Positions 3,229 through 61,939 of a stretch of DNA of 64,000 nucleotides are shown in pieces. Source of the stretch: Sphyrna mokarran (lineage: Eukaryota); assembly GCA_024679065.1 (NCBI GenBank), contig JAGIQG010000001.1:153698001-153762000 (forward strand), in the 5' to 3' direction. Position 1 is the stretch's first letter. Each line of letters starts with the position of its first letter. Both the position numbers and the translations under genes were made by a program. The notes under the pieces were generated by a model. The model ran no database searches. It was not told the DNA's origin and saw nothing but the letters and a program-made list of their open reading frames with translations.

Positions 3229-5415
3229 AGCTGCTGGCCCAATTGCCTCTCTAACAGGCAGCTGGCCCAATTGCCTCCCGAACAGGCTGCTGGCCCAATT
3301 GCCTCTCTAACAGGAAGCTGGCCCAGTTGCCTCCCGAACAGGCAGCTGGCCCAATTGCCTCCCCAACAGGCAGCTGGCCCAATTGCCTCCCGAAAGGCAG
3401 CTGGCCCAATTGCCTCCTAACAGGCAGCTGGCCCAGTTGCCTCCAACAGGCGCTGGCCATTGCCTACCACCCCAAAGCGCGCCATTGCCCGAACAGGCAG
3501 CTGGCCCAATTGCCTCCCCAACAGGCGCTGGCCCATCCTCCAAAGCTGGCCCAATTGCCTCCACAGGCTGCTGGCCCAATTGCCTCCTAACAGGCGCTGG
3601 CCCATGCTCAGCTGGCCAATTCCTCCTAACAGGCTGGCCCATTGCCTCCCAACAGGCACTGGCCCAATTGCCTCCCCAACAGGCAGCTGGCCCAATTGCC
3701 TCCCGAAAGGCAGCTGGCCCAATTGCCTCCTAACAGGCAGCTGGCCCAATTGCCTCTCTAACAGGCTGCTGGCCCAGTTGCCTCTCTAACAGGCAGCTGG
3801 CCCAGTTGCCTCTCTAACAGGCTGCTGGCCCAATTGCCTCTCTAACAGGCAGCTGGCCCAATTGCCTCCCGAACAGGCAGCTGGCCCAATTGCCTCCCCA
3901 ACAGGCTGCTGGCCCAATTGCCTCTCTAACAGGCTGCTGGCCCAATTGCCTCCCCAGCAGAGCTGGCCCAATTGCCTCCTAACAGGCTGCTGGCCCAATT
4001 GCCTCCCCAACAGGCAGTGCCTTGCCTCCAAAGGCGCTGGCCCAATTGCCTCCCCACAGGCTGGCCCATTGCCTCCTAACAGGCTGCTGGCCCAATTGCC
4101 TCCCGAACAGGCAGCTGGCCCAATTGCCTCTCTAACAGGCTGCTGGCCCAATTGCCTCCCCAACAGGCAGCTGGCCCAGTTGCCTCTCTAACAGGCTGCT
4201 GGCCCAATTGCCTCCCCAACAGGCAGCTGGCCCAATTGCCTCTCTAACAGGCTGCTGGCCCAATTGCCTCCCCAACAGGCAGCTGGCCCAATTGCCTCTC
4301 TAACAGGCTGCTGGCCCAATTGCCTCCCCAACAGGCAGCTGGCCCAATTGCCTCTCTAACAGGCTGCTGGCCCAGTTGCCTCCCCAGCAGGCAGCTGGCC
4401 CAATTGCCTCTCTAACAGGCTGCTGGCCCAGTTGCCTCCCCAACAGGCAGCTGGCCCAATTGCCTCTCTAACAGGCTGCTGGCCCAGTTGCCTCCCCAAC
4501 AGGCAGCTGGCCCAGTTGCCTCTCTAACAGGCTGCTGGCCCAATTGCCTCCCAAACAGGCAGCTGGCCCAGTTGCCTCTCTAACAGGCTGCTGGCCCAAT
4601 TGCCTCCCCAACAGGCAGCTGGCCCAATTGCCTCCCCAACAGGCAGCTGGCCCAATTGCCTCCCGAACAGGCTGCTGGCCCAATTGCCTCCCTAACAGGC
4701 TGCTGGCCCAATTGCCTCTCTAACAGGCTGCTGGCCCAGTTGCCTCCCCAGCAGGTAGCTGGCCCATTGCCTCTCAACAGGCTGCTGGCCCAGTTGCCTC
4801 CCCAGCAGGTAGCTGGCCCAATTGCCTCTCTAACAGGCTGCTGGCCCATTGCCTCCCAGCAGGTAGCTGCCAGTTGCCTCTCTAACAGGCTGCTGGCCCA
4901 ATTGCCTCCCGAACAGGCAGCTGGCCCAATTGCCTCTCTAACAGGCTGCTGGCCCAGTTGCCTCCCCAGCAGGTAGCTGGCCCAGTTGCCTCTCTAACAG
5001 GCTGCTGGCCCAGTTGCCTCCCCAGCAGGTAGCTGGCCCAATTGCCTCTCTAACAGGCTGCTGGCCCAGTTGCCTCCCCAGCAGGTAGCTGGCCCAGTTG
5101 CCTCTCTAACAGGCTGCTGGCCCAATTGCCTCCCAAACAGGCAGCTGGCCCAGTTGCCTCTCTAACAGGCTGCTGGCCCAATTGCCTCCCCAACAGGCAG
5201 CTGGCCCAATTGCCTCCCCAACAGGCAGCTGGCCCAATTGCCTCCCGAACAGGCTGCTGGCCCAATTGCCTCCCTAACAGGCTGCTGGCCCAGTTGCCTC
5301 CCCAACAGGTTGCTGGGCCAGTTGTCTCCCCAGCAGGCAGCTGGCTTAGTTATCTTTCCAACGGGCTTTTGACCCACTTGCCTCCACAACAGCCTGTTGA
5401 CCAGTTGCCTCTCCC
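3229..5415. repeat. Minisatellite, 28-bp unit CTGGCCCARTTGCCTC(TCT/CCC)AACAGGCWG, about 75-78 copies
   Basis: Direct periodicity (GGCCC at 4201, 4229, 4257). Alternating variants give a 56-bp higher order; the array decays at its right end. Confidence 0.97.
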
Positions 5416-29617: not shown

Positions 29618-30175
29618 AGAATTAACCTATGTACATGTTAAATGCCAGGGGAATTAGCCTATGTACATGTTAAAATGCAACAGGAATTTGCCCATCTATA
29701 TGTTAAAATGCAAGAAGAATTTGCCCATGCACATGTTAAAATGCAAGGGGAATTAGTCCACATACATATTAAAATGCAAGGGGAATTAGCCCACGTACAT
29801 GTTAAAACGCAAGATGAATTAGCCCATGTACATGTTAAAGTGCAAGGGGAATTAGCCCATGTACATGTTAAAATGCAAGGGGAATTAGCTCACATACATG
29901 TTAAAATGCAAAGAAATTAGCCCTCATACATGTTAAAATGCAAGGGGAATTAGCCCATGTACATGTTAAAATGCAAGGGGAATTAGCTCACATACATGTT
30001 AAAATGCAAAGAAATTAGCCCTCATACATGTTAAAATGCAAGGGGAATTAGCCCATGTACATATTAAAATGCAAGGGGAATTAGCCCGCGTATATGTTAA
30101 AATGTAATGGGAATTAGCCCACGTACATGTTAAAATGCAAGGGGAATTAGCCCATGTACATGTTAAATTGCAAGG
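29618..30175. repeat. Minisatellite, 33-bp unit GAATTAGCCCATGTACATGTTAAAATGCAAGGG, about 17 copies
   Basis: Direct periodicity; 11-aa repeat ELAHVHVKMQG in ORF 29642-29920. Confidence 0.96.
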
Positions 30176-30192
30176 ACAATAAAAACAGAAAC

Positions 30193-32886
30193 CAGGTTGT
30201 TGACGTCGAGGTAGGAGAGCAGGTGTCAAATAGTGATCACAACTCTGTCTGCTTTAGGATATTAATGGAAAAGGACGAGACCGGCCCAAAAGGGAGGGTA
30301 TTTAACTGGGGGAGGGCTAGATATGGCCAGATTAGGCAAGATCTTAAAGATACCGACTGGGATAAGCTTTTTGAGGGCAGGTCGACGAGGTACATGTGGG
30401 ATTCTTTCAAGGGAAAACTAAACTCTCTGCAGGAAAGATACGTGCCGGCAAGGAGGAAGGATGGGAAAGGTAGGATTAGAGAACCTTGGCTTACCAGGGA
30501 GATTGAGAACTTGATCAAGGAAAAGCGAGAGGCTTACATTTGATCTAGGCAACTAGGGACTGAGACAGCGCTGGAAGCTTATAGAGAGTGTAGACGGGAT
30601 CTTAAAAGGGGTATTAGAAAGGCAAAAAGGGGCCACGAGGTGGCTCTGGCAGGTAGGATTAAGGAAACTCCAAAGGCATTTTACACCTATGTAAGGAGCA
30701 AAAGGATGGTTAGAGGCAAGATTGGACCTCTTAGGGACAGAGGAGGGGGATCTATGCTTAGAGCCTGAGGGAATGGGGGAGATCCTGAATGAATACTTTG
30801 CGTCGGTATTCACGCAGGAGACTGGACAGATGTCTGTGCCTGATGTTGACAAAGTTGAGGATCGGTTGAGGAAAATAAGGATTACGAGGAAAGAGGTGTT
30901 GGGGCTGTTAGGCAGCTTAAAGACATATAAAGCTCCGGGGCCTGATGGCATTTACCCAGGCTGCTAAGGGAGTTGAGGGAAGACTTGGCTGGGCCTCTGA
31001 CGCAAATCTTTGTCTCTTCCCTGGACACAGGTGAGGGCCCAGAGGACTGGAGGATAGCAAACGTAGTACCGTTGTTTAAAAAAGGTCAGAGGGATCACCC
31101 AGGGAACTATAGGCCGGTGAGCTTGACTTCAGTTATAGGTAAGCTAATGGAGAGGATCCTTAGAGACAGGATGTATGAGCATCTGGAGCGCTGCGATCTG
31201 ATCAGGGATACGCAGCATGGCTTCGTCAAGGGGAAGTCTTGTCTTACGAATCTAGTGGAATTTTTTGAAGAAGTGACAAAAACAGTTGATGAAGACAGGC
31301 TGTTGATGTCGTCTACATGGATTTCAGTAAGGTGTTTGACAAGGTTCCTCATGGTAGACTGATAGAGAAGGTGAAGGCACATGGGATACAGGGTCGGGTA
31401 TGTAGATGGGTCGAAAACTGGCTCGGAAGGAGGAGACAGAGGGTAGTAGTGGAAGGCTCTTTTTTCCGGCTGGAAGCCTGTCACTAGTGGAGTGCCACAA
31501 GGCTCAGTACTAGGTCCTCTTCTATTTGTGGTCTACATAAACGACTTGGAAGTAGGGGTAGGTGGTGAGATCAGCAAATTTGCTGATGACACCAAGATGC
31601 TTGGATTGGCGGGTACAGAAGAGCAGTGTCAGGCAATACAACAGGACATAGACAGGTTGGTAGATTGGGCAGATAGATGGCAAATGGAATTTAATCCGGA
31701 TAAATGCGAGGTGATGCATTTTGGCCGGAAAAATGTAGAAGAGAGTTATAGGATAAAAGGTAAAACTATACGGAGCATCGAGACGCAGAGAGACTTGGAG
31801 GTGCAGGTTCACAAGTCTCTGAAGGTGTCCTCACAGGTGGAGAAGGTGATAAAGAAGGCGTATATTATGTTAGCTTTCATAGAAAAGGGTATAGAATACA
31901 AGAGTAGGAGTTTGATGTTGCAGTTGTATAGAACGTTGGTTAGGCCTCACTTGGAATACTGCGTCCAGTTCTGGTCGCCGTACTATCGGAAGGATGTGGA
32001 GTCCTTGGAGAGAGTGCAGAGGAGGTTTACCAGGATGCTGCCTGGTATGGAAGGACTGTCCTATGAGGAACGATTAGATAGACTGGGGTTGTTTTCCCTT
32101 GAAAGACGTCGGCTTAGAGGGGATCTCATAGAGGTGTATAAGATTATAAGGGGTATAGATAGAGTAAATGGAGGTAAACTTTTTCCACCTTTAGAAATGG
32201 ATAGGACGAGAGGTCATGGCCATAGGGTGAGGGGGGCTATGTATAGGACGAATATTAGAGGGCAGTTTTTCACACAAAGGGTAGTGGGGGTGTGGAATGC
32301 ACTGCCGAGTAAGGTGGTGGGAGCAGGCACGCTGGGGCTGTTTAAGGGTCTCTTGGACAGCCACATGAGCGGTATGCAGATAGAGGGATATATTAGGACT
32401 GTTTAACTACGGCTTTTTTCCACAGGTAATTCGGTCCATACTTGACCAACATTGAGCATGCATTCGGCAGGTGGTGCGGGTACGGCTCTTGGATGTTGAT
32501 TCATGGGTTGCCTGGTACCTCATGTCGTAAATGAGTGCTTTATGTGGACCATCTGAAGGGCACCATGACAGCTCAGAGACTATCGATGTGGCTGTGCAGA
32601 CACTTGGAATTGGGCCGGTGTCTGCGGGAGTTTGCGCGTTCTCCCCGTGGTAGCGTGGGTTTTCTCCGGGCACTCCGGTTTCCTCCCACAACCCAAAAAT
32701 TCGCTCTTAGGCTGATTGGGAAACAAATTGTCCTATGGTGAGAATTTTCCATATTAGGAATAATATATATATTATTATATAGGAATATTAAAATAGGATA
32801 ATGGATTTGCTACTATATAGTATGACGGCGGCGCGGGCTCGTTGGGCCGAAGGGCCTGTTTCCCGTGCTGTGTTGCTTAAAAAAAA
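30193..32886 (+). mobile_element. 5'-truncated young CR1 LINE (end of APE, RT, long 3' UTR containing a V domain, A-tail)
   Basis: SDHN, KAPGPDGI, YRPVSLTS, QHGF, PQGSVLGP, KFADDTK, RPHLEYC, WNALP; ORF2 stop at 32406. Terminal GGGCCGAAGGGCCTGT motif; candidate TSD AGAAAC at 30187-30192 and 32887-32892. Confidence 0.95.
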
Positions 32887-33459
32887 AGAAACAACATTTT
32901 AGATTTGAAAACGGTCAATTATTGAGATTTAAAAAAATGTTAACATGAGATAAGCACTCCTAACGGAGCCTTCTGGAATTACTTTTTCCAACCACTTAGG
33001 GACATGCTGTGGATTTATTTTTCACCCTTAGGGGGCAGAAGTAGCAAGTCACCCACAAAATGACAGCTGAAGATGACATGGCACTGAGTATGTGAGTACT
33101 CCAGGTAGGTTGAAGATCACTTTTGAAGAAAGTAAGCCACTTAATCTTTGGAATAATCTCCTGTTCAGCTATGATATCAGGGTGAGGCAGATGAGAGCGA
33201 GTTCTTTGTTTCCTTCAATGTTCAGCAGTGACTGCAACTGAATTTAAAGTCATTAAATAATTCTGGCATACTCCCATACCTCTACTTCAGAACCCAAATA
33301 GGATGAGCCAGAAAAGAGCTGCACAGGTTAGCTGAAAATGGGCAGAATATTTTTTTAATTTCAAATTGTATTTCTAGGGAATTTAATCAACCCTTATGCC
33401 CATAAGATACTAATAAAAATGTTGTTTGATGTATTCCTCTTATTTTGCTTTGCTTTTAA

Positions 33460-33690
33460 TGTCATAGGATCATAGAATGGTACAGCACAGAAGGAGACCA
33501 TTCGGCCCATTGTATTGTGCCTGTTCTTCAATCGAGCTACCCATCTGATCATACTGCTCCCCTGCTCTTTCTCCATAGTCCTGTAAATCTTTCCCTTCAA
33601 GTATTTATCCAATCCATTTTGAATGTTGTTGTTGAATTGACTTCAACTTTCAGCAGTGGTTTCCAGACTGCAACAATTCAACATGTGAAG
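33460..33690 (-). mobile_element. Old CR1 3' end, first piece of a host element split by later insertions
   Basis: CATAGAATGGTACAGCACAGAAGGAGACCATTCGGCCC terminus; the sequence resumes at about 36700, 37050 and 40600. Confidence 0.75.
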
Positions 33691-33691
33691 A

Positions 33692-36600
33692 CATAGAACA
33701 TAGAACATAGAACACTATAGCACAAACAGGCCCTTCGGCCCACAAGTTGTGCCGAACACATCAAAAACCTACCCAGCCATAGACCTATCTATAACCCCCA
33801 ATCCCATTGGATCCCATATACTCATCCAGAAGTCTTTTAAAAGACCCCAGCGAGTTCGCCTCGACCACCACCGATGGCAGCCGATTCCATTCACTCACCA
33901 CCCTCTGAGGGAAAACCTTCCCCTAGCATCTCCTCTGTACTTGCTTCTCTGCACCTTAAATCTGTGCCCTCTTGTTGCGACCATTTCAGCCCTGGGAAAT
34001 AGTCTCCGAGAGTCCACCCTATCTATTCCTCTCAACATCTTGTAAACCTCTATCAGGTCGCCTCTCAACCTTCGTCTCTCCAGGGAGAACAGTCCCAGCT
34101 CCCTCAACCTGTCTTCATAAGGCATGCCTCCCAATCCAGGCAACATCCTTGTAAATCTCCTCTGCACCCTTTCAATAGCTTCCACGTCCTTCCTATAGTG
34201 AGGCGACCAGAACTGCGCACAGTACTCCAAGTGTGGTCTGACAAGGGTCCTATAAAGCTGCAGCATTACTTCCTGACTCCTGAACTCAATCCCTCGATGA
34301 ATGAAGGCCAGTACACCGTAAGCTTTCTTAACCACATCCTCCACCTGGGAGGCCGATTTGAGAGTCTTATGGACCCGGACCCCAAGATCCCTCTGCTCTT
34401 CCACACAGCTAAGACTCCTACCTTTGATAGTGTACTCATTCATCCCATTGGATCTGCCAAAATGGACCACAACACATTTATCCGCGTTGAAGTCCATCTG
34501 CCACTTCTCCGCCCAGTCTTGCATCCTGTCGATGTCATGCTGCAACTTCTGACATCCCTCCAGACCATCCACAACACCACCGACCTTCGTGTCATCGGCG
34601 AACTTACTCACCCATCCCTCCACTTCCTCATCCAGGTCATTTATGAAAATGACAAACAGCAAGGGTCCTAGAACAGATCCCTGGGGCACTCCACTGGTGA
34701 CCGACCTCCATGCAGAAAAAGAGCCATCCACAACCACCCTCTGCCTTCTGCAGGCAAGCCAGTTCTGGATCCACAAGGCCAAAGCCCCTTGGATCCCATG
34801 GCCTCTCACCTTCTCAAGAAGTCTTGCATGGGGGACCTTGTCAAATGCCTTGCTGAAGTCCATGTACACCACGTCCACTGCTCTTCCTTCGTCAATGTGT
34901 TCAGTCACATTTTCGAAGAACTCAATTAAGCTCGTAAGGCACGACCTGCCTTTTACAAAACCATGCTGACTATTTCTAATCAACCTAAACTTCTCCAAAT
35001 GCTTGTAAATCTTGTCCCTCAGAAGCCTCTCCATCAGCTTACCAACCACCGAGGTCAGACTCACCGGTCGGTAATTTCCAGGACTATCCCTGTTCCCTTT
35101 CTTGAAAATAGGGACCACATCCGCAATCCTCCAATCCTCCGGAACCTCTCCCGTCTCCATCGACGACGCAAAGATCATCGCCAGGGGCTCTGCAATGACA
35201 TCCCTCACCTCCCACAATAACCTGGGGTACATCCCATCTGGTCCCGGAGACTTGTCTATCTTGATAGCATTTAAAAGTTCTAACACATCCGCTTCCTTAA
35301 TATCTACACACTCAATCTTTTCAGTCTGCCGCAAACTTGTAGTGCATCCTCCCAGATCACTTTCCACCGTGAATACTGAGGCAAAGTACTCATTAAGCAC
35401 CTCTGCCATTTCTTCCGGTTCCATACAGACTTTTCCCCCTTCACCTTTTATAGGTCCTATCCCTTCTCTTCTCATCCTTTTACTTTTCACATATTTGTAG
35501 AAGGCCTTGGGATTCTCCTTAATCCTACCAGCCAAGGCCTTCTCATGACCCTTCTGGCTCTCCTAATTTCCTTTTTAAGCTCTCTTCTATAAGCCTTATA
35601 CTTCTCTAGATCCCCAACATCTCCTAGCTCTTTGAACCTTTTATACACCTTTCTTTTCTTCCTGACTATGTTCACCACAGCCTTCGTGCACCACGGTTCC
35701 CGCGTCCTACCAAAACCTCCTTGTCTCACCGGAACGTTGTCGTGCAAAGCTCCAGACAAGCATTCCTTGACTATCTGCCACCTTCCTTCTGTGCTTTTCC
35801 CCAAGAACACCTCCTTCCAGTTTATTCGCCCCCACATCTGCCTGATGTCTTCATATTTCCCCTTATTCCAGACAAACACCTTCCTAGCCTGCCTGATCCT
35901 ATCCTTTTCCAATGCAAGGATGAAGGAGATAGAATTATGATCTCCATCCCCAAGATGCTCTCCTACCAAGAGATCATCACCTGTCCTGGTTCATTAGCTA
36001 GTACCAGGTCCAGTACAGCCTCTCCTCTCGTAGGCTTGTCCACGTGCTGTGTCAGGAACCCCTCCTGAACACACCTAACAACCTCCTCCCCATCCAAACC
36101 CCTTACCCTTGGGATATTCCAGTCGATGTTTGGGAAATTGAAGTCTCCCATCACAACAACTCTATTATTTCTACATCTCTCCAGTATCGGTTTCCCTATC
36201 TGCACCTCAACTTCCCTGTCACTATTGGGCGGCCTATAGAATACACCCAGCAACGTCACCGACCCTTTGCTATTCCTAACGTCCACCCACAGAGACTCCA
36301 TAGACATTCCCTCCTCGGTATCCACCTTCTCTGCAGCCATGACACTGTCCCTGATCAACAGTGCCACTCCACCACCTCTTTTGCCTCCCTCCCTGTCCTT
36401 CCTGAAGGATCTGAATCCCGGGACCTATAGTACCCAGTCCTGTCCCTGAGACATCCAAGTCTCTGTAATGGCCACCACATCACAATCCCAAGCAGCAATC
36501 CACGCCCTAAGTTCATCCACCTTATTTACTACACTCCTGGCATTAAAATAGACACAGCTCAGTCCCTCAGACTGGACATTTCCCTTCTACCCCACTCGTC

Positions 36601-44420: not shown

Positions 44421-44890
44421 CATATGTTCAAAAATTATGTTTTCAAAAGTAGGCCATAACCAATCTCTATTGCACTGTTTATTTCCATTTGCTTCCATAA
44501 TCTTGGAGGTGTCGAATGACTAGGCGGGACATAAAAACAATCTGGTCCACTGCCACCGACACAAAGTATTCCCCATTCAGGGTATTTTTCCAGGTGCTGA
44601 TCACTGCTTGTGTTTACCCTGTTTAGAGCCATGGAATTATTGCAGAAGGATGTCATTGAGCCCATCGAGTCCATACCAGCCCCCCATAGAGCAACCCAGT
44701 CAGTCCCATTTCCCCACTGTAGCCCTGCAAGTCTATTTCTTTGAATTGCCTAAACAGTTTCCTGTTGAAAACATCCAACATCTCCACTTCCGCCATCCTT
44801 GTTAGCAGTGAGTTCCGGGTCATTACCACTCACTGTGTACAGCCATCCTTCCTCTTATTCCCCCTGCATGTCTTGCCCACAATCTTAAAT
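44340..44890 (+). repeat. Local duplication, copy 1 (about 550 bp)
   Basis: Near-identical to 45909-46460 (offset 1569); paired ORFs 44435/46004 and 44608/46177. Confidence 0.95.
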
Positions 44891-45908: not shown

Positions 45909-46460
45909 ATTTCACTCCTAAGCCTCGTACACTCCACAGAAAGAAGTCCCAGTCTATCCAACCTCTCCTTATAACTCAAACCATCAAGTCATATGTTCAA
46001 AAATTATATTTTCAAAAGTAGGCCATAACCAATCTCTATTACACTGTTTATTTCCATTTGCTTCCATAATCTTGGAGGTGGCAAATGACTAGGCGGGACA
46101 TAAAAACAATCTGGTCCACTGCCACTGACACAAAGTATTCCCCATTCAGGGTATTTTTCCAGGTGCTGATCACTGCTTGTGTTTACCCTGTTTAGAGCCA
46201 TGGAATTATTGCAGAAGGATGTCATTGAGCCCATCGGGTCCATACCAGCCCTCCATAGAGCAACCCAGTCAGTCCCATTTCCCCACTGTAGCCCTGCAAG
46301 TCTATTTCTTTGAATTGCCTAAACAGTTTCCTGTTGAAAACATCCAACATCTCCACTTCCGCCATCCTTGTTAGCAGTGAGTTCCGGGTCATTACCACTC
46401 AGTGTGTACAGCCATCCTTCCTCTTATTCCCCCTGCATCTTTTGTCCACAATCTTAAATC
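45909..46460 (+). repeat. Local duplication, copy 2
   Basis: About 15 substitutions relative to copy 1, counted by eye. Confidence 0.95.
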
Positions 46461-47441: not shown

Positions 47442-47855
47442 TGACACTGTTTCACTGTGATACTGACTGTAAAGACACCATTCCCACACTAATGACACTG
47501 ACTGTGAGGATACCATTCCCACACTGAGTCACTGTGACACTGACTGTGAGGATACCATTCCCACACTGCGTCACTGTGACACTGACTGTGAGGATACCAT
47601 TCCCACACTGCGTCACTGTGACACTGACTGTGAGGATACCATTCCCACACTGCGTCACTGTGACACTGACTGTGAGGATACCATTCCCACACTGCGTCAC
47701 TGTGACACTGACTGTGAGGATACCATTCCCACACTGCGTCACTGTGATACTGACTGTGAAGATACCATTCCCACACTGCGTCACTGTGACACTGACTGTG
47801 AGGATACCATTCCCACTCTGCGTCACTGTGACATTGACTGTGGGGGTACCATTCG
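47442..47855. repeat. Minisatellite, 42-bp unit GTCACTGTGACACTGACTGTGAGGATACCATTCCCACACTGC, about 9-10 copies
   Basis: Direct periodicity with identical central copies; 14-aa repeats in the ORF track. Confidence 0.97.
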
Positions 47856-48520: not shown

Positions 48521-48932
48521 TGACATCCATCACCTTGTGACTTTCCCAGCATTTCTCATGCACAGCACTTCTCTGACCCACACACCTCACAGCTCCACAC
48601 TTCACTCTGTCTCCAACAACTCTTCAAATTTCTGTCTGAACAGCTGCTGCTTACGTTCACTCAAATCCTACTGCACTCCTACTCCAAACCCTCATGATCA
48701 CCCTCTGCAAATGTTCTTATTCCAAACCCGACAGTCATTTCATCTGCCAACTGTGATTAAATGTATTTCTGGAGGTTTCATCACATGACTTGTCCCCACA
48801 TTCCAGCCATCAGTTAACACATCAATCCTTGTGACATCCTGCGCCAATTGGAAAGCAAAAGGACTCTGTCCCAGTTTGGATGGAAAAAAAATAAATATAT
48901 AAATCTCCATTAGTCCTGACTACTTTTTAATA

Positions 48933-49225
48933 TTGGCAGAATGGTTAGCACCGCTGCCTCACGGCACCAGGAATGCAGGTTTGAGTGCTGGTTTGGGTCA
49001 CTGTCTGTGTGGAGTTTGCATGTTCTCCCCATATCAGAGTGGGTTTCCTCCAGGTGCTCCGGTTTCCTCCGGCAGTCCAAAAAACATGCTGGTTAGGTGC
49101 ATTGACCATGCTAATTTCTCCCTCAGTGTACCTGAACAGGTGCCGAGTCTGGCAACTAGGGGATTTTCGGAGTAACTTCATTACAGTGTTAACGTAAGCC
49201 TACTGTGATGCCAATAAATAAACTG
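48933..49225 (+). mobile_element. V-SINE with alternative (non-CR1) tail
   Basis: Same head and V domain as HE1, but tail ACTAGGGGATTTT..AGTAACTTCATT.CAGTGTTAA.GTAAGCCTACT..AATAAATAAA. Confidence 0.85.
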
Positions 49226-49609
49226 TAAAATGGACAATCACAGGCTCTAGCTGATCACGTGCTGGCTGAAAGTGAACAAAGGTTGGCAGTTTCCACTTCT
49301 TGTAACGTAACACTCCTTGCATTAGGTCTCCACCGTTTATTGCTAGCATGTTCCTGTAAAGGGAAATTATCCATTGTATACAATGTGAGTTATGATGGTC
49401 ATTGCGTGTATGTACAGTCCAGCTTTAAAATAGCAATTGGAATATGAGACAGCCAACGTAAGTAGGAACCGTAGTGAAATTATCATGATTGAGAGAAACA
49501 CACTAGTACATCTACACTTAACGTTAACATTTATGAGAAAAATGGAAAAAGAAGCTGTAAATTACTGTTCCTATTTTTGTATTTTCTGAGCATTCGTGGA
49601 GTCACATGT

Positions 49610-50399: not shown

Positions 50400-52670
50400 C
50401 TGAGAGTGGATAGGTCAGCTCACACAACATACTTGCATCCCTGATTATGAAGGGAAGTGGGGGTGGGCACAGTGGGAAGGTTCACCATAATCTTCCAATC
50501 TTCCCTGAATATGGTGTGGAGGTGCCAGGGGGTTGGAAAGTAGTAAACGTGACACCCGTATTCCAGTAAGAGTGTAAAGACTATACCAGTAATTACAAGT
50601 CAATCAGTTTATCATCTGCAGTGGGTAAGATTTTAAAATAACAATCAGGAAAAAATAAACAGTTACATACTTGCAGAGGTTTGAGTTAAGGGAGAACAAG
50701 CAGATATTTATATAAGGCAGATCACATTTGGTGAATTCAATTGAATTCAATGATGAATTAACCAAGAAAATTCACAGAAATACAGAATACTACAGTACCG
50801 GAGAGACCTTTCGGCCCACCGAGTTTGCACCAACACATGAAATGCCTGACCTGCCCACCTAATCCCACTTGCCAGCACTTGGCCCATAGTCTCAAATGTT
50901 ATGGCATGCCAGTACTCATCCAGGTACTTTCTAAAGGATGTGAAGCATCTTGCCTCCACAATCCTTCCAGGCAATGCATTCCAGACTTATGAGTAAAAAT
51001 GTTTTTCCTCAAATCCCCCCTAAACCTCTCCCTTCTCACTTTTAACTTGTGTCCCCTTGTAACTGACTCTTCAAATAAGGAGAACAGTTGCTCCCTCTCC
51101 ACCCTGTCCATGCCCCTCATAATCTTGAGCACCTCAATCACATTGCTCCCTCAGTCTTTTCTGCTCCAATGAAAATAACCCAAGCTTAGCCAACCTCTCT
51201 TGTAACTCTTTGCCACCCCAGTGGCCAGGAAGAGATTAAAAATTTGGATCAGAGCCCCTGCAATTTCCTTTTTTGTTTCCCACAACAGCCTGGGCCATAA
51301 TTCATCCAGATCTGGAGTCTTGTCCACTTTTAAGTTCCAATATCTCCAATACCTTGTAACTCCCTATGATTATTTTCTTTAGAGCCTCACAATCTCTTTC
51401 CCCGAGTTCCATAATTACCTCCTCATTCGCATGGGTAAAAACAGATGTGAAATATTCATTTAACACCCTATCAATGTTCTTTGCCTCCACTCAAAGATTT
51501 CCCCCTTGGTGGCTAATGGGCCTTACTCTTTCCCTGGTCATCCCATCTCCATAGATATAATTGATACAATGAGAAGGAAAAGAGAGGCTTTTAATAAGTA
51601 TAAGGGGAATAAGTTTGTAGAGACATTAGTGGAGTACAGAAAGTGCAAGGTGGAGCTTGAGAAATCATTTAGGAGAGCAAAGAGGGGATATGAAAAAGCT
51701 CTGTCTGATAAAAATAGGGAAAATCCTAAGATATCTATAAATATATCAATGGGCAGAGGAAAATTCATGAAGTTTGAGTTTATTTATTTGTGTCACAAAT
51801 ATGCTTACCTTAATACTGCAATGAAGTTACTGTGAAAATCCCATAGCTGCCACACTCAGATGCCTGTTCAGGTAAACTGAGGGAGAATTTTGCATGATCA
51901 ATGCACCTAACCTGCACATCTTTCAGACTGTGGAGAAAATCCATGATAAGGAATAAGAAATATAGACTTGATGCCACAGTTGTAAAGAATGTGAGTGACA
52001 GCAGAGGGGGGTTTGTGTGCATTGAGCTCTGAAGGTTGCAACACATAATGAGCGAATAGATAGCAAAGCAAATTGCAAAGACAGAGGTATTAAGTAAACC
52101 TTTATAGAACTCTGGTTAGGCCACAACCAGAGCAGTGTGCCCAGTTCTGCTGACCTGACTTTCGGAATGATTGAAGGTCTTTGAGAGGGTGCAGAGGAGA
52201 TTTACCAGCATGGTTCCAGGAATGGAGGTCTTGGGTACAAGGTTAAGTTGGAGATGTTAGGGTTTCTCTCCTTGGAGCAAAGGGGCTTGAGAAGAGATCA
52301 GATTGAGGGGTACAACATTATGATATGTTTATATAAGATAGACAAGAAAGAGCTGTTCCCATTCGCTGAGATATAGGAATAAAGACTAGGGCACATTAAT
52401 TTAAAGTTTTGAGCAAAAATATAGAGGAAATAGAGGAAAAGCATTTTTATACAGGGAGTGGTAATGACCTGGTACTCACTATCTGTGAAGCTGGTGGAAG
52501 TGGAGACAATGAATGATTTCAAAAGGAAATTGAATGGGGATTTGAGAAGAAGAAACCTACATGGCTATGGGGATAGAGTGATGGAATGGAACTGACCAAA
52601 TTGCTCTACCAACAGCCAGCATGGACCCAAATGCTGAATAGCTTCTTCATATGCCATAATGACTCTGGAC
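50400..52670. mobile_element. Mosaic of CR1 fragments in both orientations, plus a V-SINE tail at about 51775-51930
   Basis: Plus-strand RT piece 50400-50760; minus 3' end 50770-51200 (IEVLKIMRGMDRV); minus 51210-51560 (LNEYFTSVFT); plus 51565-51760 and 51940-52670. Confidence 0.8.
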
Positions 52671-59174: not shown

Positions 59175-59600
59175 ATCATGTGAGGAAAACCTTTATACCC
59201 AGAGGGTGGTGACAGTCTGGAATGTGCTGTCAGGGAGGGCGGTAGAGGAAGGTTGTCTCACAACCTTTAAAAAGTATCTGGATGAGCACTTGGCATATCT
59301 TACCATTCAAGACTATGGGCCAAGTGCTGGTAAATGGGATTAGATGGGAGGTCATGTGTTTCTTCTGTGCTAGGCAGACTCAATGGACCGAAGGGCCTCT
59401 TCTACACTGTATGATTTTACGATTCAGAGATGTGTAGGTCAGGTTGATTGGCCATGCTAAATTGCCCCTTAGTGTTGTGGGGGAGGGGGGGGGCTGGTAG
59501 GGTACATACATGGGTTACAGAGGTTGGATCTGAGTGAGATTATTGTCACTGCAGGCTTGATGGGCCAAACAGCCTTCTTCTACACTGTAGGGATTCTATG
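59175..59600 (+). mobile_element. CR1 3' end followed by the 3' half of an HE1-type SINE
   Basis: YTQRVVTVWNVL with GAAGGGCCTCTTCTACACTG terminus; then GGTTGATTGGCCATGCTAAATTGCCCCTTAGTGT..GTAGGGATTCTATG. Confidence 0.8.
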
Positions 59601-60809
59601 TCCAGCACTTTACGACCTCACTCAGGCCAGACTTGGAAAATCCTGCCCAAGGCTAATGGAGCATTCCATTCTGTAAACTGTGCCTACCCAGATTCCAGGG
59701 TGGGCGTGGTGGTAAAATTCTGGCCCATGGTTCTATTTATCCTATGCTAATTTGTATATGGCTCAGGTAATAATCCAAGAATTATTACCTTTGAGGTTCG
59801 ACTTCTAATTTGGTGTCTATCTCTTCATATTGACTATGCAGAACCTCCTTAGTACCAACATGGACCATAACCACTGGATGCCTGGTTGGGAACTACCGAC
59901 CTACATTATGATAGCTGCACAATGCCGGTAACACATACCAACTGCTTTGCACAACCCCCAAACCCTGCCCTTTACTTTAATGCCTTACATATCTATTATT
60001 TTCAACAGGACTTCACACAGACAGATCAATGGTTAATTTTGTGCTATTGGCCCAAAGAGCACAACTATGTTAACTATGTGGCTCAATATCTAGGTTTCCT
60101 TATGCCCCTGTGCGGTGCCTTTGCAGGCTTTCCTATGTTAACAATGCAATGGAAATGCAAAGCTGTTACAGTACACATGTTGGGGGAAACTGTGTCAAAT
60201 TGCATTCCAGAAAATTCAAATCATAGCAGGAAAAGTATCAATAAAATCTATGCTGTTATATTGACTGAAATAAGAAAAGAATATTAGAAACTCATAAAAT
60301 CAACTAAATGAATTAAACATTGAAATATAATTGAATATCTTCTCATCCACATTATAATACCAGTTCATCTCTTAGCTATGCAACAGCAGAAAGGTTTTAT
60401 GACCTAAAATACTAGCGTGCTTGTAAGTTATTCCCTGGGAGTCGACAAACTGTTGATTTAACACTTTACTTTAGTCCAACAGCCCTATGAGATATTTCCT
60501 ATGCCCTGTCAGTCCTGATACTGATTGGAAATTATCAATGAATGTGCGGGATAATGAAGTCGCAACGCTGATATCATTCATTACATCTGGCTTCAAAACT
60601 GCTGATGTAGCTTTGGTGCCCAGAAAACATTGATGATATGGTAATTGCTGAGAATTTAATGCTGAAATTGCTGTGTCTACCAAAACTTGGTGTTCCAAAA
60701 CGATTCAGTACGATGTCCTTTCAATGATCTGTGCAATCTAATTAGGGAGAAGAGTGACAACAGGGACGTGAATGGACCTGCTGAGAAATAAGACTGTCTA
60801 GCACTAAAT

Positions 60810-61087
60810 AGGGCAGCACGGTGGCACAGTGGTTAACACTGCTGCCTCACAGCACTAGGGACCCAGGTTCGATTCCGGGCTTGGGTCACTGTCTGTGTGG
60901 AGTTTGCACGTTCTCCCTGTGTCTGTGTGGGTTTCCTCTGGGTGCTCTGGTTTCCTCCCACAGTCCAAAGGACGTGCAGATTAGGTGAATTCATCCAACC
61001 AAGTACTGGAATGTGGTGACGAGGGATTTTTATAGTAACTTCATTGTAGAATGAATGTAAGCCTACTTGTGACTAATAAACTTTAAC
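60810..61087 (+). mobile_element. V-SINE with alternative tail, well-preserved head
   Basis: GGGCAGCACGGTGGCACAGTGGTTA (A box), GGTTCGATTCC (B box), V domain, tail AGTAACTTCATTG..GTAAGCCTACTTGTGACTAATAAA. Confidence 0.9.
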
Positions 61088-61939
61088 TATTCCCCTTGCT
61101 GCTGCCTCAGCAGTGCCAATTCTGATTTCAGAACTGGAAGGTTAGTAGGCACTAGTGCCTATAATTGCATTGAGAAATAACCAAGAGATAATCCTTTACC
61201 TCATGTCACTGGAAATGCAGTGCCATTTGTGGGCAGCACCATTGTCTGTTCAGGCCATGAGTTGGGTATGTATTCCAGTGTTTACGCATTTATTCCAACC
61301 ACTAAGCTCATAACCCCGAAAGTGAAAATTGTGATCTTTTTAACACCATTTAACACAGGCAGCAACTTCTGCAAGCACTGTTGTTTTGGTACTGTGGCTG
61401 GTGTTCTAGAATGCATCACAGGACTGCACTCTAGAGATGCTTGAGAAAACAGGGACACAACTATTCCTAAATAAAATAATAATGTTTAATAGGAACAACA
61501 TCATTAGGAAGAAGGGAATCACAACTCAAATTCACCTTGAAGACTAAAGAACAATGTCTCAAGAAAGCTGCAGAAAAAAATAGTGGCTGTTCTTAAAAAG
61601 AAACAGTAAGATTTACTAAGCATTCAGAATCAGAACTGTTCGTGCTGTTAAAATATGGACTCATTCATTTTCCTACTGGTATCCCTCTGTTGATATATGT
61701 GTATTGAAATCTTAACTTGACAAAATGCACAATGCAATTTTCAATACACTAAATCTATCTCTGTCTCACTAAGTGAGAAATAGCATGTTTCGATGGTGTG
61801 TTTCCAAAAGTGTGTTTCCAAAAATAATAAACCTAGAGATCATTTGAACCTTGAACTTCACCAGTAGCACTTACATATTTTAACAATTAGTATTAATCGA
61901 ACAAAGCACTCGGTCATATGCAACTGAAAATAGTTTGCT

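What the first reader, a model, noticed from the sequence alone, without database searches (positions are those of the whole stretch)
32407..32892. CR1 LINE whose 3' UTR contains a headless V-SINE core domain
Seen: after the ORF2 stop (32406) come about 210 nt of unique sequence, then a clear V domain at about 32617-32735 (GGTGTCTGCGGGAGTTTGCGCGTTCTCCCCGTGG..GCGTGGGTTTTCTCCGGGCACTCCGGTTTCCTCCCACA). An AT-rich spacer follows, then a single CR1 terminal motif (GGGCCGAAGGGCCTGTTTCCCGTGCTG) and an A-tail. No tRNA head or A/B boxes precede the V domain, and no earlier CR1 terminus is present. The V domain differs from the HE1 copies nearby and keeps its CpGs, as the LINE does. A 6-bp direct repeat (AGAAAC) flanks the whole 2.7-kb unit. 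Other CR1s here have short UTRs and microsatellite tails. Inference: this is a LINE lineage that captured, or donated, the V domain and transposes with it, which bears on the unclear origin and function of SINE central domains.
Basis: partly seen in the sequence, partly recalled or inferred. Interest (0 to 1): 0.72.

Follow-up and report, generated by a model that had tools for sequence, protein, structure and literature searches.

The report
Shark LINE carrying SINE V domain
One young shark-type CR1 retrotransposon copy ends in a headless piece of a SINE, including the ancient V domain that papers say has not been seen in LINEs, but whether a whole family is built this way could not be checked.

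Summary
A 5'-truncated CR1 (30193-32886, +) has a 480-nt 3' region: 203 nt of unmatched sequence, then a V-SINE without its tRNA head (V domain, post-V block, AT-rich spacer), then the only CR1 terminal stem-loop. The ORF2-motif-to-terminus distance is 550 nt, against 140-166 nt in 7 of 8 other CR1 ends here. A 38-nt V core is identical to a published pipefish V-SINE consensus. ORF, spacer, V and tail are all CpG-rich, unlike 12 decayed HE1-type SINEs nearby. AGAAAC sits at both exact ends (chance 0.4%, or 4.7% at A-rich sites). Best reading (0.6): one continuous CR1 transcript whose short UTR was replaced by a captured V-SINE body and tail. Capture fits; donation does not. No sister copy was reachable: no shark DNA collection, closest ORF2 about 80% identical. 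So a one-off chimera remains open (about 0.3). The 'A-tail' may be partly target duplication. If it is a family, it contradicts the published statement that these domains are absent from LINEs.

The parts
30187..30192 (+). 5' copy of target-site duplication AGAAAC (possibly 12 nt, 30181-30192, with one change)
   Evidence: ORF2 homology starts at the next codon, 30193
30193..32406 (+). 5'-truncated CR1 ORF2 (linker, RT, C-terminus); 4 frameshifts and 1 internal stop
   Evidence: Pfam RVT_1; lesions; tree
32407..32609 (+). 203-nt unmatched UTR segment, CpG-rich, no tRNA head, T6 run at 32414, possible long hairpin at about 32446-32548
32610..32737 (+). V domain plus post-V block of vertebrate V-SINEs, starting at the head/body border
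   Evidence: 32653-32690 identical to Ac1_SA consensus by eye
32738..32823 (+). AT-rich spacer at the position of the GT-rich spacer of the neighbouring SINEs
32824..32878 (+). CR1/HE1-type terminal two-part stem-loop, lineage-specific outer stem
32879..32886 (+). A run (tail, or partly duplicated target)
32887..32892 (+). 3' copy of target-site duplication AGAAAC

Best explanation
This is one 5'-truncated copy of a CR1 sub-lineage whose master transcript carries a captured, headless V-SINE as its 3' end. How it moved (inferred from stringent-LINE biology): ORF2 protein bound the terminal stem-loop of its own RNA, nicked an A-rich target, copied tail, spacer, V domain, the 203-nt segment and 2.2 kb of ORF2 in one pass, stopped early, and left a short duplication. 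How it arose (inferred): a template switch or recombination replaced the usual UTR of about 50 nt and the terminus with the body and tail of a V-SINE. That SINE's tail is CR1-derived and so already carried a usable recognition stem-loop. The tRNA head was left behind at the head/body border. The tail is the essential part. The V domain most likely rides along as a folded RNA module; whether it helps mobility is not shown. Shown: anatomy, single terminus, young age throughout, V identity. Not shown: a second copy.
For: Single terminal motif. ORF-motif-to-terminus distance 550 nt vs 140-166 nt in 7 of 8 other CR1 ends (where two matches were printed I took the one in that range; the eighth copy has a deletion there). 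Duplication at the exact 5' homology border: 0.4% of 3000 random positions, 4.7% of 1183 A-rich positions. CpG counts: unique segment 7, reached by 0 of 272 background windows (median 2); V 9, 0 of 433; whole UTR 23, 0 of 113; ORF windows of the same element 1-7 (element, neighbouring young CR1 and one minisatellite excluded from background). V segment has 8 CpG vs 0-3 in 12 of 12 HE1-type copies yet differs from their majority at 23 of 107 other sites (3 of the 23 are likely CpG sites that decayed in the neighbours), so it is not a decayed HE1. Its distinctive letters occur in a published family consensus (38 of 38 nt with Ac1_SA; 1 of 22 consensuses read). Tail forms all 13 pairs of the shared stem-loop with changed letters; across 15 tails 13 cells change on both sides vs 5.3 +/- 2.2 shuffled (relatedness inflates this). 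ORF, V variant and tail are each single in the window. Stringent LINEs bind their own 3' stem-loop (PMC4176376 abstract, zebrafish L2-clade elements). In 113 human Alu/L1 chimeras the pipeline looked 5' of L1 and the Alu is mostly full-length (10.1101/2025.02.02.635956 passages), unlike this order.
Against: n = 1. No sister: best ORF2 relative is 80% identical over 69% of the query, best long relative among 120 listed is 69%; the unique segment finds no protein-level look-alike; the V variant is absent from GTDB contigs. A CR1 end followed directly by a headless HE1 fragment occurs by chance in this same window (59188-59602), though there the CR1 keeps its own terminus. A 6-nt A-rich duplication is weak alone. 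The unique segment shows more TpG/CpA excess than the ORF (o/e 1.41 and 1.78 vs 0.94 and 1.15). Folding support is modest: the 203-nt segment as a whole is not more stable than shuffles (z -0.48). A systematic Repbase LINE-SINE comparison reported no conserved SINE body in LINEs (PMC5786205).
Confidence: 0.6

Rival explanations
1. One-off chimera: reverse transcription began on the RNA of a young, non-HE1 V-SINE and switched to a CR1 mRNA at this insertion only. The 203-nt segment belongs to one of the two parents.
For: Template switching is the accepted route for module exchange (PMC4758252; PMC5499810). Explains the single duplication, single terminus and equal age. No second copy found.
Against: Needs two unseen things: a young V-SINE family with no copy here (0 other matches within 3 mismatches, beside 12 HE1-type copies) and a parent with the 203-nt segment. 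The join falls at the head/body border. An 8-bp perfect stem pairs the unique segment with the V start (32596-32603 with 32618-32625; 0.26% with random upstream sequence, found post hoc).
Confidence: 0.17
2. An independent non-autonomous element of about 440-480 nt with an unknown, non-tRNA head inserted into or recombined with the end of a CR1 and removed the CR1's own terminus.
For: CAACATT repeat at 32447 and 32892 could frame a 438-nt insert. SINEs with non-tRNA heads exist (PMC4758252; Ante has a 5S head with CORE+V, PMC5804259). CR1 homology stops at 32392.
Against: That repeat is chance-level (40%). No remnant of a CR1 terminus on either side. No B-box or Rfam head. T6 run at 32414 would end a Pol III transcript starting upstream of it (terminator rule from PMC4758252). 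The outer AGAAAC pair would then be coincidence.
Confidence: 0.1
3. Small transduction lineage: a CR1 that had lost its terminus read through about 200 nt of neighbouring DNA into a truncated young V-SINE, and that composite locus made only a few daughters.
For: Explains the unmatched 203 nt simply; CR1 and truncated SINE tandems occur here (59188-59602).
Against: The 203-nt segment is as CpG-rich as the ORF and unlike 272 of 272 background windows, so it is not ordinary old host DNA.
Confidence: 0.1
4. Donation: CR1 3' UTRs like this one are the ancestral source of V; SINEs arose by adding a tRNA head.
For: Homology starts exactly where the head ends; LINE-derived SINE bodies are known for RTE and Vingi 5' UTRs (PMC5786205).
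Against: V is shared by cnidarians, molluscs, arthropods and vertebrates. This ORF2 is nested among elasmobranch CR1s (16-row clade, 100/98), and 7 of 8 other CR1 ends here are short. The segment has the vertebrate post-V block.
Confidence: 0.03

Closest known systems
HER1 / elasmobranch CR1 LINEs (partner of HE1; table in PMC3747384; original paper not held, details recalled)
   Same: CR1-type ORF2 (RVT_1), nested among shark and ray CR1 proteins; same terminal stem-loop core; 5' truncation.
   Different: About 390 nt longer 3' region holding a V domain; no TCTATG-like microsatellite end, which 14 of 14 other motif matches here show by eye; ORF2 only 65% identical to the neighbouring young CR1.
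V-SINEs: HE1 of sharks, Ac1-like SINEs of bony fish, anuran V-SINEs
   Same: V domain, post-V block, spacer, LINE-derived tail in the same order; 38-nt core identical to Ac1_SA.
   Different: No tRNA head or Pol III boxes; spacer AT-rich rather than GT-rich; joined to ORF2.
MER6 / MER6A MITE (PMC6887750, parts 1-3 of 5 read)
   Same: A headless V-SINE (body plus tail) carried and spread by another mobile element.
   Different: MER6 is a non-autonomous DNA transposon in which the SINE tail is idle; here the carrier is a LINE and the SINE tail is the only possible priming end. No terminal inverted repeats frame the segment.
Ceph domain / RTE 5' UTR link, Ingi-3_AC and R4-1_ADi (PMC5786205)
   Same: SINE-body-like sequence found within a LINE UTR.
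   Different: Those cases are 5' UTRs of RTE, Vingi, Ingi or R4 and concern the RTE-derived half of Ceph; none concerns V, CR1 or a 3' UTR.

Membership tests
CR1-clade LINE | ORF2 with RT domain grouping with CR1 proteins | tested here: met
   (25 rows; 16-row elasmobranch-type clade 100/98)
CR1-clade LINE | AP endonuclease domain and ORF1 | not testable with these tools
   copy is 5'-truncated at 30193, downstream of the endonuclease; no sister copy available
CR1-clade LINE | 3' terminal stem-loop | tested here: met
   (z -2.65)
CR1-clade LINE | short 3' UTR ending in a microsatellite (as in neighbours) | tested here: not met
   550 vs 140-166 nt; no TCTATG-like repeat
CR1-clade LINE | integration signature (5' truncation, short duplication) | tested here: met
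   chance 0.4% to 4.7%; empty site not available
V-SINE | V conserved domain | tested here: met
V-SINE | tRNA-derived head with A and B boxes | tested here: not met
   Rfam control insensitive
V-SINE | LINE-derived 3' tail | tested here: met
V-SINE | short, non-coding, independently inserted unit | tested here: inconclusive
   no convincing inner duplication; CAACATT is chance-level; free copies cannot be sought genome-wide
HE1 subfamily seen in this window | HE1 letters in V, GT-rich spacer, HE1 tail, CpG decay of its age class | tested here: not met
   V tree unresolved (0 of 10 inner branches starred)
MER6-like MITE | terminal inverted repeats and TA duplication around the V segment | tested here: not met
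   none among the 25 longest of 103 inverted pairs listed
A V-bearing CR1 family (the new claim) | several independent loci with the same ORF2-UTR-V-tail order | not testable with these tools
   no shark genome collection; indirect searches empty

The most novel reading that the evidence does not exclude
An autonomous CR1 family of sharks has carried a V domain in its 3' UTR through many replication cycles, keeping the V core intact while spacer and flanks changed. That would be a SINE highly conserved domain working in cis within a LINE transcript, without a Pol III promoter, and would point to a role for V in the retroposition RNA itself rather than in the host. It could also reseed V-SINEs by head addition.
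Probability: 0.45. Interest if true: 0.8.

Novelty: new variant of a known kind. Interest (0 to 1): 0.56.

Why it matters
Why SINE central domains have stayed conserved for hundreds of millions of years is an open question. [quoted passage not shown] A V-bearing CR1 family would remove that argument. It would also make V function directly testable: delete or scramble V in a LINE retrotransposition reporter, where promoter effects of the SINE head play no part. If it is a one-off chimera it is a minor example of module exchange running from SINE to LINE.

Tried and rejected
Sister copies by DNA: window BLAST, plasmids, phages and E. coli, GTDB pattern for this V variant: nothing. GTDB scan with an ORF2 alignment: 33 stretches matched, 7 loci at 34-56% identity, contaminant-like and distant; 6 of 7 examined, none with V; L007 left unexamined. 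Sister copies by protein: ORF2 searches top out at 80% and 69% among the 120 listed in each. The antisense 99-codon frame across V and the unique segment gave no candidate for the unique part and 73 weak hits anchored mainly on the V part; 9 of 73 reach residue 50-69 at 40-57% identity, none beyond; their sequences were not examined, so a distant link there is not excluded. Rfam: nothing; insensitive control. tRNA scan: 0. Bacterial promoter scan: not relevant. V-domain tree of 13 rows: unresolved, and its query alignment was off in the 3' part, redone pairwise. RNA structure: whole UTR z -3.36, -2.61 with segment-wise shuffling (0 of 60); best 120-nt window z -3.5 of 19, against minima of -2.58 in 35 ORF and -3.02 in 60 random windows: suggestive only. 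The paired/unpaired split of V differences (7 of 54 vs 22 of 65 columns) is circular and not used. T4 runs within V as evidence against a SINE: rejected, since published V-SINEs have them. Horizontal transfer from bony fish: not supported; ORF2 groups with elasmobranch CR1s and the V match lies in a hyperconserved core. Literature: ten searches (40 of 46 V-SINE papers listed by title and abstract start) showed no report of a V domain in a LINE. Repbase, Dfam, the 1999 and 2002 Ogiwara papers and the SINEBase supplements were not available and may hold such an entry.

Full report
Setting. The window is repeat-rich animal DNA. It holds 12 near-full-length tRNA-headed V-SINEs and many CR1 pieces. 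An elasmobranch host is inferred from the ORF2 tree and from the SINE type; the name HE1 is recalled and agrees with the table in PMC3747384 (passages).

Anatomy. ORF2 homology starts at 30193, in the linker downstream of the endonuclease; the codons before it do not match two neighbouring CR1s. The reading frame has 4 frameshifts and 1 stop in 2.2 kb and ends at 32406. A profile of 8 other CR1 ends follows the element to 32392 and resumes only at 32826-32871. From the conserved W-N-x-L-P codons to the terminal motif is 550 nt, against 140-166 nt in 7 of 8 neighbours (where two matches were printed I took the one in that range; the eighth has a deletion). Between them lie 203 nt with no match in the window, then a stretch that aligns to model positions 92-332 of a 360-position profile of 11 in-window SINEs, E 1.8e-24. 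So the last 260 nt are a whole V-SINE minus its head: V domain, post-V block, spacer, tail. A head-only profile finds 12 of 12 SINE heads in the window and nothing upstream of this V; no B-box within one mismatch. Rfam is silent but also misses a true head. One terminus only.

Is it really V, and is it HE1? The 38 nt at 32653-32690 are identical, by eye, to the pipefish Ac1_SA consensus in the supplement of PMC6887750 (1 of 22 consensuses read), and no other site in the window comes within 3 mismatches. The segment differs from the neighbours' majority at 23 of 107 sites outside the called CpG columns (3 of them probably further CpG sites), while the neighbours differ by 11-18%. Yet it keeps 8 CpG where they keep 0-3. 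Divergence without CpG loss marks a separately replicating lineage, not a decayed HE1. The V tree was unresolved.

Did it arrive in one event? AGAAAC ends at the base before the ORF homology and recurs after the A run. Such a match arises at 0.4% of 3000 random positions and 4.7% of 1183 A-rich ones. It extends to 11 of 12 nt, so the A-tail may be mostly target. A rival 7-nt repeat (32447, 32892) is chance-level, 40%. Age is uniform: the unique segment has 7 CpG (0 of 272 background windows reach that), V has 9 (0 of 433), the whole UTR 23 (0 of 113), similar to or above ORF windows. Against this, the unique segment shows more TpG/CpA excess than the ORF. The tail folds into the two-part stem-loop shared by 15 in-window tails, with its own outer-stem letters still paired. 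The other 14 motif matches end in TCTATG-like repeats by eye; this one does not. An 8-bp stem links the unique segment to the V start (0.26%, post hoc), and a long hairpin near 32427-32546 scores z -3.5; both are hints, not proof, and the 203-nt segment as a whole is unremarkable.

Is it a family? Not testable here. The nearest ORF2 is P0049 (unnamed record), 80% identical, sister to the query at 100/98 and ending at the same position; it shows that the sub-lineage exists elsewhere but gives no DNA. All else listed is 69% or less. Searches with the UTR, its antisense frame and its V variant found no sister; GTDB gave 7 distant CR1 contaminants, 6 examined, none with V. None of these collections is a shark genome, so the blanks weigh little.

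Mechanism. Most likely (0.6) the template was one continuous CR1 RNA. Stringent LINE proteins bind their own 3' stem-loop (PMC4176376, abstract; shown for zebrafish elements, extended here by inference), and the only such structure is at the far end, so copying must have passed through V to reach ORF2. The founder probably arose when a V-SINE body and tail replaced the short UTR by template switch or recombination, the route proposed for SINE module exchange (PMC4758252, passages and section 11 part 1; PMC5499810, parts 1-3 of 6). Because the SINE tail is CR1-derived, the hybrid stays mobile. Direction is capture: V spans cnidarians to vertebrates (PMC4824008 passages; PMC5804259 passages and supplement), whereas this ORF2 is a twig among short-UTR elasmobranch CR1s. 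Rivals: a one-off switch (0.17), an independent element with an unknown head (0.10), a small read-through lineage (0.10), donation (0.03). The window itself holds a chance tandem of CR1 end plus headless SINE at 59188-59602, which shows that such neighbours occur, but that CR1 keeps its own terminus.

Comparison with what is known. It works like a CR1 and is one by ORF2 and tail, but fails the short-UTR, microsatellite pattern. It is not a V-SINE (no head). The closest precedent is MER6, a DNA MITE carrying a headless V-SINE (PMC6887750, parts 1-3 of 5). LINE-SINE body links are described for RTE and Vingi 5' UTRs only (PMC5786205, parts 1-4 of 5). [quoted passage not shown] Passages of PMC11481361, PMC7245038, PMC3531059, PMC13295347 and 10.1101/2025.02.02.635956 gave no counter-example. 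Ten searches found no report of V in a LINE, but Repbase, Dfam, the two Ogiwara papers and the SINEBase supplements were out of reach and could already hold one.

Verdict. Observation confirmed; interpretation partly supported. A real, young, composite CR1 copy with a well-kept V module; new variant of a known kind. Interest 0.56, held down by a sample of one; 0.8 if a constrained family is shown, which a single genome-wide BLAST would decide.

Noticed in passing
window 59188-59602 (+): A decayed CR1 3' end with its own terminus is followed directly by a 5'-truncated HE1-type SINE: an ordinary tandem, useful as the contrast case.
   Followed up: partly
window 48915-49229 (+), 60798-61150 (+), 51796-51939 (-): V-SINE copies with the usual head and V but a different 3' tail from the other copies, i.e. 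tail exchange within the family.
   Followed up: no
window 32596-32625: Perfect 8-bp inverted repeat spanning the unique/V junction; either co-adapted RNA structure or a fold-back trace of the joining event.
   Followed up: partly
window 29619-30175: 33-bp minisatellite, 17 copies, ending 11 nt before the 5' duplication of the element.
   Followed up: no
window 33690-36570 (-): A second young CR1 with endonuclease and RT, CpG o/e 0.45, short UTR and (TTCTATG)n end, apparently inserted just upstream of an older CR1 terminus at 33467-33512.
   Followed up: partly
window 44435-44749 and 46004-46318 (-): Two near-identical stretches about 1.6 kb apart, suggesting a local duplication.
   Followed up: no
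window 3233-5345 and 47444-47854: Further minisatellites: 28-bp unit x77 and 42-bp unit x9; the latter weakly resembles the SINE head profile.
   Followed up: no
P0002, P0004, P0258; loci L001-L006: Vertebrate CR1 sequences deposited under bacterial names (Klebsiella, Proteus, Carnobacterium, Chitinophaga, Nocardia, Streptomyces, Fredinandcohnia): assembly contamination.
   Followed up: partly
window 32412-32428: Just after the ORF2 stop, a pyrimidine run followed by CAG and then GTAA looks like adjacent splice acceptor and donor motifs; probably chance.
   Followed up: no
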